Made by a program: the position numbers and the translations under genes. A stretch of DNA of 64,000 bases from the human T2T-CHM13v2.0 reference genome, Homo sapiens: NCBI RefSeq assembly GCF_009914755.1, contig NC_060947.1; one strand, 5' to 3'. Positions 37,701 to 43,576 of this stretch are shown in pieces (positions within the stretch are counted from its first letter, which is position 1; each line of letters begins with the position of its first letter). The notes beneath the pieces are model-generated. The model saw nothing but the letters and a program-made list of their open reading frames with translations. It did not search any database and was not told the DNA's origin.

Positions 37701-39086
37701 CGATTCAATGATATGCCTATGAAACTTAACATTGGCATTCTTCACAGAACTAGAAAAAACTAATTTAGAATTCATATGGAAGCAAAAAAGAGAACAAAGA
37801 GCCAAGGCAATCCTAAACTAAAAGAACAAAGGTAGAAGCATCACACTAACTGATTTCAAAGTATACTACAGGGCTATATTAACCAAAACCGCATGGTACT
37901 GGTACAAGAACAGATACATGGACCAATGGAACCGCATAGAGAACCCAGAAATAAGACCACACACCAACAACAATCTGACAATCTAGGCAATACCACTCAG
38001 GACATAGGCATGGGCAAAGATTTCATAATGAAGATGCCAAAAGCAATTGCAACAAAAGCAAAAATTGGCAAATGGAATCAATTAAACTAAAAAGTTTTTG
38101 CACAGCAAAATAAACTATCAACAGAGCAAACAGAAAACTTACAGAACGGAAGAAAAAATTTGAAAACTATGCAACTGACATAGGTCTAATATAAAGCATC
38201 TATAAGTAATGTAAACAAATTTGCAAGAAAAAAACAAACATCTCTATAAAAAGTGGGCAGAGAACATAAACAGACACTTTTCAAAAGAAGACATACACGT
38301 GACCAACAAGCATGTGAAAGAAAGCTCAATATCACTGATCATTAAGGGAATGCAAATCAAAACCACAGTGAGATTCCATCTCACACCAGTCAGAATGACT
38401 ATTATTAGAAAGTCAAAAAATATCTGGTGCTGGTGAGGTTTACACTGTTGTAAAGGTGTTTGCTCTGTGGGTTGGAATGTAAATTAGTTCAACTAATGTG
38501 GAAGACAGTGTGGCAATTTCTCGAAGACCTACAGTCAGAAATACCATTTGACCCAGTAATCCCATTACTGGGCATACACTGAAAAGAACATAAATGATTC
38601 TATTATAAAGACACATGTACTCACATGTTTATTGCAGCACTGTTCACAATAGCAAAGACATGGAATCAACCTAAATGCTCAGCAAAGATAGACTGGATAA
38701 AGAAAATCTGGTATTTATACACCATGGAATACTATGCAGCCATAAAACAGAATGGGATCATGTCCTTTGCAGGGACATGGATAGAGCTCTAGGTCTTTAT
38801 TCTCAGCAAACTAACACAGAAACAGAAAATCAAATACTGCATGTTCTCACTTATAAGTGGGAGCTAAGTGATGAGAACACATGGGCACGTAGAGGAGAAC
38901 AACAGGCACTGGGGCATATCAGAAGTTGGAGGTTAGGAGGAGGGAGAGGACCAGCAAAAATAACTAATGGGTACTAGGCTTATTACCTGGGTGATGAAAT
39001 AATCTGTACAACACACCCCCATGACACACGTTTACCTATGTAACAAACCTGCACATCCTGCACATGTATTCCCGAACTTAAAAGTT
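37701..39086 (+). mobile_element. L1PA13-15-class 3' portion
   Basis: gattcaatg...cacagaactagaaaaa to 3'UTR aataactaatgggtactaggct...gtgatgaaataatctgtacaac; internal deletion near 37980. Confidence 0.9.
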
Positions 39087-39417
39087 AATAATAACAATAA
39101 TCTCCATTTATTAGTGGATATAATTGGTTAAAGTAATTATTACATTAGAGGGCACAATGACCAAAACTAAGTGGAACAATAATGTCAAGTAAGTTTGTAG
39201 TTAAAGAATGTAAGAGCTCCCCGCCTGAAATTGTCATAGAAGACCAAACAACACTGGACCAATTTTAGGACCCCGAAAGACTAATGCTAGTAGCCTCAAC
39301 GTGCTTAGTAGTAGATCCAGGAAGGGGAAACACCATATGACGGCCTCTAAAGGAAAAAATAATAAGCAGAAGAGAGGGTGAATACAAGCAAAACAAAAGT
39401 TTTGCCTCTGGTATTCT

Positions 39418-39720
39418 TTTTTTTTTTTTTTTTTTGAGATGGAGTCTCACTCTGTTGCCCAGGCTGGATTGCAGTAGTGCGATCTTGGCTCACTGCAAGC
39501 TCCGCCTCCCGGGTTCATGCCATTCTCCTGCCTCAGCCTCCTGAGTAGCTGGGACTACAGGCACCCGCCACCACGCCCGGCTAATATTTTGTATTTTGTT
39601 TTAGTAGAGATGGGGTTTCACCGTGTTAGCCAGGATGGTCTTGATCTCCTGACCTCGTGATCCGCCTGCCTCGGCCTCCCAAACTGCTGGGATTGCAGGC
39701 GTGAGCTATCGCGCCCGGCT
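39418..39720 (-). mobile_element. AluY
   Basis: gcaagctccgcc, gccattctcc, caggatggtc..gatctcc diagnostics; perfect TSD gcctctggtattct. Confidence 0.95.
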
Positions 39721-40387
39721 GCCTCTGGTATTCTGACATACCATCTTATGGAGCATAGCAGTTGACAATAAACAGACAACGTGAGATAAGAAGCATGTTA
39801 CTTTTTGTGCTCCAGTCAATTAAAGTAGAATGTGATATAACAAATGGCAAAGCTCATCTATAAGAAACTGAGAGTCATTAGTGGGATGGGGAGTGTGGGA
39901 ATTCCAGATGCAAAGAGCATTCCCTTCTTCCCCAATTCATAAATAAGATAAAAATAAAAGGTGAAAGTAATAGAGAAAAGTTAGGTCTAAACCAAACTTT
40001 AGAAAAATCACAAGGGCTGTCATAAAGTTCAGTAATATTTGACAATATTCTACAGAAACCTAGAGTAATGGTTATTTTACAAATTTTACTTAAAATTAGA
40101 GGGTAAGCGATTAAGCAAATTTATTTCAGAGGAATGAATAAAATTGGCAGAGAAATAGACTGATAAAATGATTGCTTTATAGAAGCAACAAAAGATTAGG
40201 AACTAAGATCTTTGGTCCCTTGGTTTGTCACTTTTATTAACTAGTTGTGGAATTTAAGCATAGTACCTCATGTATTAAATACATCTTGGGACTCAAAGGA
40301 ATGCTTGTTTTCCATGACTCATTTTTTGGGGAGAATTTTACAAAACTAGGATGAGAATGAACTTTGAGATGGATAAAATAGCCTTTT

Positions 40388-40693
40388 CTTTTTTTTTTTT
40401 TTTTTGAGACGTAGTCTCGCTCTGTCGCCCAGGCCGGACTGCGGACTGCAGTGGCGCAATCTCGGCTCACTGCAAGCTCCGCTTCCCGGGTTCACGCCAT
40501 TCTCCTGCCTCAGCCTCCCCAGTAGCTGGGACTACAGGCGCCCGCCACCGCACCCGGCTAATTTTTTGTATTTTTAGTAGAGACGGGGTTTCACCTTGTT
40601 AGCCAGGATGGTCTCGATCTCCTGACCTCATGATCCACCCGCCTCGGCCTCCCAAAGTGCTGGGATTACAGGCGTGAGCCACCGCGCCCGGCC
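40388..40693 (-). mobile_element. AluYb8 (human-specific)
   Basis: 7-bp duplication ggccggactgcggactgcagtgg, caccttgttagcc; CpGs largely intact; perfect TSD taaaatagcctttt. Confidence 0.95.
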
Positions 40694-41214: not shown

Positions 41215-41770
41215 TTTCAGACTGTATTTCCATGACAAAGAAGAAAGTCCTTAAAAAATTAAGGAGGTATAAAAATATTTTCACATAAACAATGAGATCA
41301 CATGGACACAGGAAGGGGAATATCACACTCTGGGGACTGTGGTGGGGTGGGGGGAGGGGGGAGGGATAGCATTGGGAGATATACCTAATGCTAGATGACG
41401 AGTTAGTGGCTGCAGCGCACCAGCATGGCACATGTATACATATGTAACTAACCTGCACAATGTGCACATGTACCCTAAAACTTAAAGTATAATAAAAAAA
41501 AATATTTTCAGATAAAAAAAAAGAATTTGTTTTGAGGAATCCTAACCTTAAATAATTACTGAAGGAAGTTGTCTGAACAGAAAAAAAAAAAAAAATAACA
41601 GAAAAACTCTCGAACTTCAGAAAGGAAGGAACACCAGAACGGGGAACAATAAAATCAGTATAATAGACCAGGATTCTTATTCATTTCTTAAGTCATATTT
41701 TATGGTTGAAACAAAAGTTATAAAACTACCTGAGGTGGTGCATAATATGTGTAGGAAAAATACCTGACAA
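41215..41770 (+). mobile_element. Old L1M fragment (ORF1/inter-ORF region) hosting an L1PA2
   Basis: aaaatattttcagataaa...aagaatttgtt...aaggaagtt...tatggttgaaacaaaagttata. Confidence 0.55.
41288..41497 (+). mobile_element. L1PA2, severely 5'-truncated (about 210 bp)
   Basis: gagatcacatgg, aatatcac, gatgacGAGttag (not the L1HS ACA), cacaatgtgcac; 17-bp TSD aaaaatattttca(c/g)ata. Confidence 0.9.
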
Positions 41771-42350
41771 TTATAAGAGCCATATATGACAAACCCCCAG
41801 CTAACATCCTACTGAATGGGCAAAAATGAGAAGCATACCCCTTGAAAACCAGCACAAATCAAGGATAGCCTCTCACCACTCCTATTCAACATAGTATTGG
41901 AAGTTCTGGCCAGGGCCATCAGGCAAGAGAAAGAAATAAAGAGCATCCAAATAGGAAGAGAGGAAGTCAAACTATCCCTGTTTGCAGATGACATGATCCT
42001 ATATCTAGAAAGCCCCCAGTCTCAGCCCAAAAGCTTCTTAAGCTGATAAACAACTTCAGCAAAGTCTCAGGATACAAAATAAATGTACAAAAGTCACCAA
42101 CATGACTAGACATCAAAAATAGTCAAGCCAAGAGCCACATTAGGAAAGAACTCCCCTTCAAAATTGCCACAGAAAGAATAAAACACCTACGAATACAGCT
42201 AACAAGGGAAGTGAAGGATCTCTACGAAGAGAACTACAAACCACCGCTCAGAGAAATCAGAGATGACACAAACAGGAAAAAACTTTCCATGCTCATGAAT
42301 GGGAAGAATCAATATGCTTAAAATGGCCATACTGCCCAAAGCAATTTAGA
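41762..42350 (+). mobile_element. L1PA ORF2 RT-domain fragment (displaced)
   Basis: agagccatatatgacaaaccc...ctgtttgcagatgacatg (LFADDM)...ends gcccaaagcaatttaga. Confidence 0.85.
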
Positions 42351-42700
42351 GCCTCCTGCTCTCTACTTTTTGCTTAGGATTGTCTTGGCTATTTGGGGGT
42401 TCTTTTCTGGTTCCATATGAATTTTAAAATAGTTTTTTCTAGTTCTGTAAAGAATGTCATTGGTAGTTTTATAGGAATACCACTGAGTGTGTAAATTGCT
42501 TTGGGCAGTATGGCCATTTTAACGATATTGATTCTTCCTATCCATGAACATGGAATGTTGTTCTGTTTGTTTCATCTCTGATTTCCTTCAGAAGTGTTTT
42601 GTAATTATCGTCGTAGAGACATTTCACATCTCTGGTTGGTTGTATTCCTAGATATTTTATTATTTTTGTGGCAATTGTGAAAAGAACTGCATTCCTGATT
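42351..42700 (-). mobile_element. Antisense L1PA ORF2 fragment (displaced)
   Basis: gcctcc...ttgcttaggattgtcttggctatt...gcaattgtgaa...gcattcctgattt. Confidence 0.85.
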
Positions 42701-43576
42701 TTTTTTAATTTAATTTTTAACTTCAGGGGTACATGTGCAGGTTTGTTACATAGGTAAACGTGTGTCATGGGGGTGTGTTGTACAGATTATTTCATCACCC
42801 AGGTAATAAGCCTAGTATCCATTAGTTATTTTTCCTGATCCTGTCCCTCTTCCTTACCTCCAACTTCTGATATGCCCCAGTGCCTGTTGTTCTCCTCTAT
42901 GTGCCCATGTGTTCTCATCACTTAGCTCCCACTTATAAGTGAGAACATGCAGTATTTGATTTTCTGTTTCTGTGTTAGTTTGCTGAGAATAAAGACCTAG
43001 AGCTCTATCCATGTCCCTGCAAAGGACATGATCCCATTCTGTTTTATGGCTGCATAGTATTCCATGGTGTATAACTACCAGATTTTCTTTATCCAGTCTA
43101 TCATTGCCGGGCATTTAGGTTGATTCCATGTCTTTGCTATTGTGAACAGTGCTGCAATGAACATATGAGTACATGTGTCTTTATAATAGAATGATTTATA
43201 TTCTTTTGAGTACATACCCAGTAATGGGATTACTGGGTCAAATGGTATTTCTGACTGTAGGTCTTTGAGGAATTGCCACACTGTCTTCCACAATAGTTGA
43301 ACTAATTTACACTCCCACCAACAGTGTAAACGCCTTTCTTTTTCTCTACAACCTTGCCAGCATCAGATAGTTTTTGACTTTCTAAGAATAGCCATTCCGA
43401 CTGGTGTGAGATGGTATCTCATCGTGGTTTTGATTTACATTCTTCTGATATTAGTGATGCTGAGCATTTTCTCATATGCTTGTTGGTCACATGTATAGCT
43501 TGTTTTGAGAATTTTGTGTTCATGTCGTTTGCCCATTTTTTTAATGTTGTTTTTTTTATTGTAAATTTGTTTAAGA
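42701..43576 (-). mobile_element. L1PA13-class 3' end (antisense)
   Basis: T-rich tail, caggggtacatgtgcaggtttg...ttcatcacccagg; ends gtaaatttgtttaag. Confidence 0.9.

What the first reader, a model, noticed from the sequence alone, without database searches (positions are those of the whole stretch)
38478..43310. Inverted L1PA 3' ends homogenised by gene conversion: candidate recurrent ~3.6-kb inversion
Seen: 38478-39056 (+) and about 42733-43310 (-) differ at only about 22 of about 580 positions by manual alignment (about 96%). 38715-38888 (174 bp) is identical to its partner. They share apparently non-consensus changes (gatagagctctaggtctttattctc, gacctacagtcagaa, acacacccccatgacacacg). Identity decays outward to roughly 75-80% (38220-38350 vs 43440-43560), and the extreme tails differ (cctgcacat duplicated in one copy only). 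Established: independent L1s of this age diverge far more, and close inverted repeats promote conversion and NAHR inversion. Inference: repeated sequence exchange occurred, so the spacer carrying AluY, AluYb8 and L1PA2 may toggle orientation.
Basis: partly seen in the sequence, partly recalled or inferred. Interest (0 to 1): 0.78.

Follow-up and report, generated by a model that had tools for sequence, protein, structure and literature searches.

The report
Old L1 pair, converted and flipped
Two old, back-to-front copies of the L1 jumping gene upstream of the dystrophin gene are far more alike than their age allows, likely because they copied sequence from each other and once flipped the 3.6-kb stretch between them; this is a known kind of genome rearrangement, with no sign that it still varies among people.

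Summary
Arms 38478-39047 (+) and 43311-42742 (-) match at 548 of 570 columns (96.1%), with 174 bp identical. The next-best genomic copies found are 84-86%. The arms share 30 minority states; pairs among 35 other copies share 1.7 on average. So this is sequence exchange, not a young subfamily. Divergence comes in tiers (about 0.3%, 6%, 16-18%), which points to at least two episodes. New here: the 16 bases outside the right element's 5' end match, at 14 of 16, the bases after the LEFT element's poly(A). This crossed target-site duplication suggests the spacer is already inverted relative to the ancestor. Present-day toggling is unsupported: no row at this locus in a T2T callset of 44 samples, a 612-candidate catalogue or two human-chimpanzee lists, though none targeted it. 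Ape genomes could not be examined. Verdict: a new instance of L1-L1 gene conversion plus a likely old L1-mediated inversion; modest interest.

The parts
38212..39102 (+). Left arm: 3' end of an old L1 with A-rich tail; part of a longer plus-strand piece 37702-39094 that has an internal deletion of about 190 bp at 37977
42697..43578 (-). Right arm: 5'-truncated old L1 3' end, T-rich tail at 42697-42720; similarity to other copies stops at 43568-43578
38715..38933 (+). Youngest exchanged tract (partner 43074-42856): 1 difference in 219 bp, including the 174-bp identical run
38972..39047 (+). Second young tract (partner 42817-42742): 0 differences in 76 bp
38934..38971 (+). Patch at background divergence between the young tracts: 6 differences in 38 bp
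38478..38714 (+). Older exchanged tier: 15 differences in 237 bp, 9 shared minority states, 12 left-only against 2 right-only
38439..38477 (+). Scrambled edge of the core in the left arm; 38439-38450 is an exact 12-nt copy of sequence that lies about 20 nt further 3' in the right arm (43330-43319)
38212..38439 (+). Outer zone at background identity (81.5%); 16 left-only, 20 right-only, 5 shared minority states
39095..39110 (+). Candidate target-site duplication, copy following the left poly(A)
   Evidence: 14 of 16 match to the reverse complement of 43579-43594
43579..43594 (-). Candidate target-site duplication, copy abutting the right element's 5' end
39103..42696 (.). Spacer of about 3.6 kb, inferred to be inverted relative to the ancestral state
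39403..39734 (-). Alu insertion with an exact 15-nt target-site duplication
40374..40707 (-). Young Alu with an exact 14-nt target-site duplication, 22 CpG and a 7-nt tandem duplication (Yb8-type, label recalled)
41271..41510 (+). Short L1 3' end with an exact 13-nt target-site duplication
41494..41775 (+). Piece E of a much older L1 family; now on the opposite strand to piece c
37586..37702 (-). Piece c of the same much older L1 family; about 680-740 bp 3' of E in 3 reference copies
41757..42351 (+). L1 ORF2-region piece f, whose 3' end joins exactly, in reference coordinates, the 5' end of the left element at 37702
   Evidence: L049 806/806, L030 810/810, L016 3028/3028, L050 3439/3439
42351..42701 (-). 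L1 ORF2-region piece g, which continues after about 12 bp as piece b at 37446-37585
37446..37585 (-). L1 piece b, displaced continuation of g
32626..37440 (+). 5' part of a once full-length old L1 (piece a); similarity to other copies starts at about 32623-32633

Best explanation
Two old L1 3' ends lie in opposite orientation 3.6 kb apart and share 30 rare bases over a 570-bp core; they likely inserted independently, likely exchanged sequence by gene conversion at least twice, and one exchange likely ended in a crossover that flipped the spacer. Shown: the identity, the shared rare states, the stepped divergence and a 14-of-16 crossed flank match. Inferred: a break in one arm was repaired on the other by fold-back or sister-chromatid pairing; an older round homogenised 38478-38714 (6% apart now) and a younger one 38715-38933 and 38972-39047 (0.3%). 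Inferred: the flip is old and fixed in humans, since no human or human-chimpanzee list I could search shows it. No function is implied.
For: Next-best genomic copies 84-86% against 96% for the partner (40 scored of 12,852 candidates). 30 shared minority states against a mean of 1.74 and a maximum of 16 among 595 panel pairs; arms form a 100/100 clade. Outer 228 bp at background, 81.5%, with symmetric private changes 16:20. A run of 174 or more arises in 0.6% of random placements of 22 differences; 6 of 7 differences within 38 bp in 0.04%. Crossed flank match 14/16: reached by 5 of 3000 random segments and 0 of 400; its score of 10 lies within the 7-16 scored by the 9 recognisable duplications among 36 panel copies. 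It abuts the right element's 5' end (43578) and the left tail. Flipping the spacer back also puts old pieces c and E on one strand in the order seen in 3 reference copies. Crossed duplications are the published criterion for L1-mediated inversions (PMC2603318, passage); conversion between transposons under 10 kb apart is known (PMC6598467, passage).
Against: Only one of the two expected crossed duplications was found. The left element's 5' flank matched none of 4 candidate flanks, and the method recovers a duplication in only 9 of 36 panel copies, so missing matches say little either way. Six pairings were tested, and a second, low-complexity match (10/11, P=0.006) turned up at an internal deletion. 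The c/E clue assumes both come from one copy; a third old piece (32104-32527) lies on E's present strand and an overlapping copy lies at 30401-30641. Zone borders were chosen after seeing the data. Left-only against right-only changes in 38440-38714 are 26:2 (18:2 without the 12-nt block), which equal-rate ageing after conversion does not explain. No ape sequence was examined.
Confidence: 0.5

Rival explanations
1. Recurrent toggling: conversion keeps the arms alike, and the spacer has flipped several times across primates or is polymorphic now.
For: At least two exchange episodes; the youngest tracts differ at 1 of 295 bp, upper 95% limit 1.9%. Validated inversions have inverted repeats as short as 140 bp (PMC13629690), and 11 of 16 repeat-mediated inversions studied showed recurrence (PMC3961182, passage). 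Repeats made only of transposons were not in the untargeted candidate set of PMC13629690.
Against: No chrX row between 26.38 and 45.10 Mb in Table S1 of PMC10150506 (44 samples, T2T coordinates). No row at my lifted position among 612 candidates merged from studies of 195 people. None among 5 chrX rows of PMC2603318 or at chrX 33 Mb in PMC1270012. Only about 220 bp is near-identical in one stretch.
Confidence: 0.17
2. Conversion only: the arms exchanged sequence without any crossover, and the crossed flank match is chance.
For: One crossed match of two expected; six tests give a corrected P near 0.01; A/T-rich flanks; low sensitivity of the method.
Against: The match sits exactly at both expected places and scores like real duplications of this age; the uncrossed pairing scores at chance, P=0.92.
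Confidence: 0.15
3. One complex repair event: a single replication-based event with template switches shuffled pieces b, c, f and g, inverted the spacer through the L1 homology and left a patchy, error-laden tract.
For: Displaced exact joins f|d and g|b; a templated 12-mer at the core's edge; 26:2 asymmetry of private changes. Such complex inversions are described (PMC12350158, PMC9675761; passages).
Against: It needs about 5% errors over 237 bp next to 0.3% over 295 bp in one event. The displaced pieces are 82-86% alike where they overlap and show no homogenisation.
Confidence: 0.14
4. Not exchange: both arms belong to a young subfamily, or are one old duplication, or the assembly homogenised them.
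For: Only the best 40 candidates per search were scored; no second assembly was compared.
Against: No other copy above 86%; the outer 228 bp of the same two elements are at background; identity is stepped, not uniform.
Confidence: 0.04

Closest known systems
Retrotransposon recombination-mediated inversion, L1-RMI (Lee et al. 2008, PMC2603318; passages and Table S1 chrX rows seen)
   Same: Opposed L1s at both ends of a kb-scale segment; target-site duplications no longer match within an element.
   Different: Their L1PA cases are described as younger than about 20 My and are defined by a human-chimpanzee difference. These arms are 81.5% alike outside the core, carry a 570-bp homogenised core, and no species difference is shown.
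Non-allelic gene conversion between transposable elements (Fawcett and Innan 2019, PMC6598467; passages seen)
   Same: Reduced divergence and shared mutations between copies under 10 kb apart, on a sex chromosome.
   Different: The passages seen describe Alu and LTR-type cases; here it is an old L1 pair with three divergence tiers and one-sided private changes.
Transposable element-mediated rearrangements (Balachandran et al. 2022, PMC9675761; passages seen)
   Same: Inversions between opposed elements, median 2,454 bp; L1 pairs using homologous repair have median similarity 93.5%.
   Different: Those are polymorphic calls in three genomes; no inverted haplotype is known to me here.
Recurrent inverted-repeat inversions (Aguado 2014, PMC3961182; Porubsky 2023, PMC10150506; Moreira-Pinhal 2026, PMC13629690)
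   Same: Inverted repeats flanking a few kb on chrX.
   Different: The repeats in the rows of Aguado's Table 1 that I saw are 1.6-15.9 kb; this pair is 570 bp at 96% and is absent from the lists searched.

Membership tests
Non-allelic gene conversion between transposon copies | Copies more alike than independent copies of their family | tested here: met
   96.1% against panel mean 85.8%, max 90.2%; next-best genomic hits 84-86%
Non-allelic gene conversion between transposon copies | Shared derived states in a bounded tract, with background divergence outside it | tested here: met
   30 shared in 570 core columns; outer zone 81.5% with 5 shared, 16 and 20 private
Non-allelic gene conversion between transposon copies | Arms cluster by species, not by position, across primates | not testable with these tools
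   No primate genomes held: 'It has no relatives here'
L1 recombination-mediated inversion (Lee 2008) | Opposed L1s span both ends of the segment | tested here: met
L1 recombination-mediated inversion (Lee 2008) | Chimeric elements with crossed target-site duplications | tested here: inconclusive
   One crossed pair 14/16; second pair not found, the left element's 5' side being rearranged
L1 recombination-mediated inversion (Lee 2008) | Opposite orientation in an outgroup genome | not testable with these tools
   No ape sequence; not listed as a human-chimpanzee difference
Recurrent polymorphic inverted-repeat inversion | Both orientations segregate in humans | tested here: inconclusive
   Absent from two catalogues; neither targeted the locus; one supplement cut
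Recurrent polymorphic inverted-repeat inversion | SNPs and haplotypes shared between orientations | not testable with these tools
   No population data
Young L1 subfamily (shared diagnostic bases) | Other genomic copies carry the same bases at similar identity | tested here: not met
L1PA13-15 subfamily label | Best match to that consensus | not testable with these tools
   No repeat library; end branches of 35 relatives have median 0.083, which fits an old primate L1 by recalled figures

The most novel reading that the evidence does not exclude
A self-reinforcing inversion switch built from two old L1 ends: a first, error-prone exchange between copies about 15% apart raised their identity, later rounds raised it to near 100%, and the 3.6-kb spacer 23-28 kb upstream of the most 5' DMD exon has since flipped repeatedly in apes or at low frequency in humans, missed because candidate lists leave out repeats made only of transposons.
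Probability: 0.17. Interest if true: 0.55.

Novelty: new member of a known kind. Interest (0 to 1): 0.33.

Why it matters
It shows from a single genome that stepped arm identity plus a crossed target-site duplication can expose an old L1-mediated inversion. A genome-wide scan for this signature would count how often old L1 pairs become recombination substrates, which species comparisons limited to events over 10 kb (PMC12058530) would miss. The locus itself holds no exon or annotated element, so no effect on DMD is indicated.

Tried and rejected
Young-subfamily reading: rejected. Patchy one-way conversion as the cause of the 12:2 asymmetry: rejected by arithmetic, since either direction needs an implausible private load (about 25% or about 2% against 8-10% elsewhere). 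Orienting the spacer through a repeat shared by its flanks: 39100-39400 and 43574-44100 each matched only themselves. A duplication for the full-length element: none at 4 flanks. Twin priming for pieces b, f, g: the order does not fit without further rearrangement. Proximity alone as the cause: the adjacent inverted pieces f and g are only 81.7% alike. Supplements: PMC12350158 file 2 was cut when stored and the rows shown were unrelated; the PMC12058530 supplement had no readable text; either may bear on the claim. A search for the locus in DMD literature listed 6 papers; passages of PMC10949565 gave duplication breakpoints and none of those shown was described at this repeat pair. The hg38, hg18 and hg17 positions used to search tables were lifted by hand from recalled DMD coordinates.
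Full report
Observation. The inverted pair is real: 38452-39056 against 42733-43337, 95% over 605 nt, inside a gapped match of 892 columns at 88.9%. The core 38478-39047 differs at 22 of 570 columns, 38715-38888 is identical over 174 bp, and a 9-nt duplication is in the left arm only. In T2T-CHM13 the arms span chrX:32,960,212-32,965,573, 23-28 kb upstream of the most 5' DMD exon in the hub's table.

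Not a young subfamily. A genome search with the left core scored the best 40 of 12,852 candidates: the partner is 96%, all others 84-86%. With the whole right arm (40 of 18,354), the partner is 89% and the others 82-86%. I aligned the arms with 35 of the 46 other copies fetched; 4 were dropped as short and 7 as duplicates. Core identity among 595 panel pairs averages 85.8% (max 90.2%), and their longest identical run is 88 bp. The arms share 30 minority states against a panel mean of 1.74 and a maximum of 16, and form a 100/100 clade. The panel was picked for likeness to the arms, which makes the comparison conservative. Outside the core, 38212-38439 is 81.5%, with 16 left-only and 20 right-only changes. 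Six control pairs in the window are 79-91% with runs of at most 31 bp. Sequence exchange between the arms is close to certain (about 0.95).

How many episodes. Divergence is stepped: 15/237 (38478-38714), 1/219 (38715-38933), 6/38 (38934-38971), 0/76 (38972-39047). These zones were drawn after seeing the data, so I rely on two scan statistics. A run of 174 or more appears in 0.6% of random placements, and 6 of 7 differences within 38 bp in 0.04%. The 6% tier holds 9 shared minority states, so it too was once homogenised. Two or more episodes are likely (about 0.75). The young tracts differ at 1 of 295 bp (0.34%, upper limit 1.9%). That is compatible with 1% divergence (P=0.21) but not 3% (P=0.0014). 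With recalled figures of about 1% for human-chimpanzee X and about 3% for orangutan, the last exchange falls within the great apes; choosing the tracts for their identity biases this young.

Unexplained. In 38440-38714 the left arm has 26 private changes and the right arm 2 (P=3e-6); without a 12-nt block copied from just downstream, it is 18:2 (P=0.0004). Error-prone repair synthesis into the left arm would explain it; this is untested.

Evidence for a flip. Lee et al. use target-site duplications to tell which orientation is ancestral (PMC2603318, passage). The right element's 5' end lies at about 43578. The 16 bases beyond it, read on its own strand, match nothing after its own tail (P=0.92). 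They match 39095-39110, just after the left tail, at 14 of 16 (P=0.0017, one of six pairings; 0 of 400). Among 36 panel copies the method gave 9 recognisable duplications scoring 7-16; this one scores 10. Against: the method misses most; a second low-complexity match (10/11, P=0.006) appeared at an internal deletion; and the reciprocal crossed pair was not found. A weaker clue: old pieces c (37586-37702) and E (41494-41775) are collinear about 700 bp apart in 3 of 10 reference loci (the other 7 did not hold both), but lie on opposite strands here; flipping the spacer back aligns them. Other old pieces nearby make their common origin uncertain. I put a net flip at about 0.75-0.8. One genome cannot tell one flip from three.

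Wider anatomy. The left element's 5' side is scrambled. Piece f (41757-42351, +) ends exactly where the left element begins at 37702 in four reference copies, and piece g (42351-42701, -) continues about 12 bp later as b (37446-37585, -). A once full-length L1 starts near 32626 and stops at 37440. This older shuffle would explain the missing second duplication. Its history cannot be resolved uniquely here. Three younger insertions in the spacer have exact 13-15-nt duplications.

Is it polymorphic or recurrent? Table S1 of PMC10150506 (T2T, 44 samples) has no chrX row between 26.38 and 45.10 Mb (first 30 of 85 chrX places seen, in sorted order). PMC13629690 has no coordinate starting 3336 among 612 candidates, but it left out transposon-only repeats from its untargeted set. 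PMC2603318 lists 5 chrX inversions, none here; its table covers only the 49 retrotransposon-mediated cases of 252. PMC1270012 has no chrX row at 33 Mb, on an early chimpanzee draft. The hg38, hg18 and hg17 positions rest on recalled DMD coordinates. Supplements of PMC12350158 and PMC12058530 were cut or unreadable. A common human polymorphism is unlikely, since the T2T list includes calls of 1-3 kb; rare alleles and ape toggling remain open.

What I saw of each paper. Passages only: PMC2603318, PMC12350158, PMC6044046, PMC12058530, PMC9675761, PMC3961182, PMC6598467, PMC10949565. PMC13629690: part 1 of 8, passages and a supplement search. PMC10150506 and PMC1270012: supplement rows only, plus the listing for the former. 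Literature searches; none of the titles or abstract openings listed names this locus.

Verdict. A real and well-supported case of L1-L1 gene conversion, with a likely old L1-mediated inversion. Both processes are known, the locus is non-genic, and toggling is unshown. New member of a known kind; interest 0.33.

Noticed in passing
window 37441-37702 and 41757-42701: L1 ORF2-region pieces are displaced by 4-5 kb: f joins the left element's 5' end with 0 bp lost and g joins b with about 12 bp lost, pointing to an older multi-junction rearrangement.
   Followed up: partly
window 38439-38477: Left arm edge is only 48% like the panel; it holds an exact 12-nt copy of sequence from about 20 nt downstream and 14 private changes against 0 in the right arm.
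   Followed up: partly
window 40374-40707: CpG-rich young Alu with a 7-nt tandem duplication and exact 14-nt target-site duplication; may be human-specific or polymorphic (recalled property of Yb8).
   Followed up: no
window 22564-23606 and 45936-46969: A second, longer inverted L1 pair 22 kb apart that brackets the locus; 82% alike, longest identical run 29 bp, no sign of exchange.
   Followed up: partly
window 5127-5238 and 5992-6104: Direct repeat of 113 bp at 89% identity, 865 bp apart.
   Followed up: no
window 44085-44140: Short tandem repeat of about three 19-nt units just outside the right arm (seen).
   Followed up: no
L012:1242-2111 and L012:3012-3579: Another inverted pair of L1 3' ends about 900 bp apart on contig C11; identity between its two arms was not measured.
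   Followed up: no
panel: One pair of panel copies shares 16 minority states in the core and one pair has an 88-bp identical run; which copies was not looked up.
   Followed up: no
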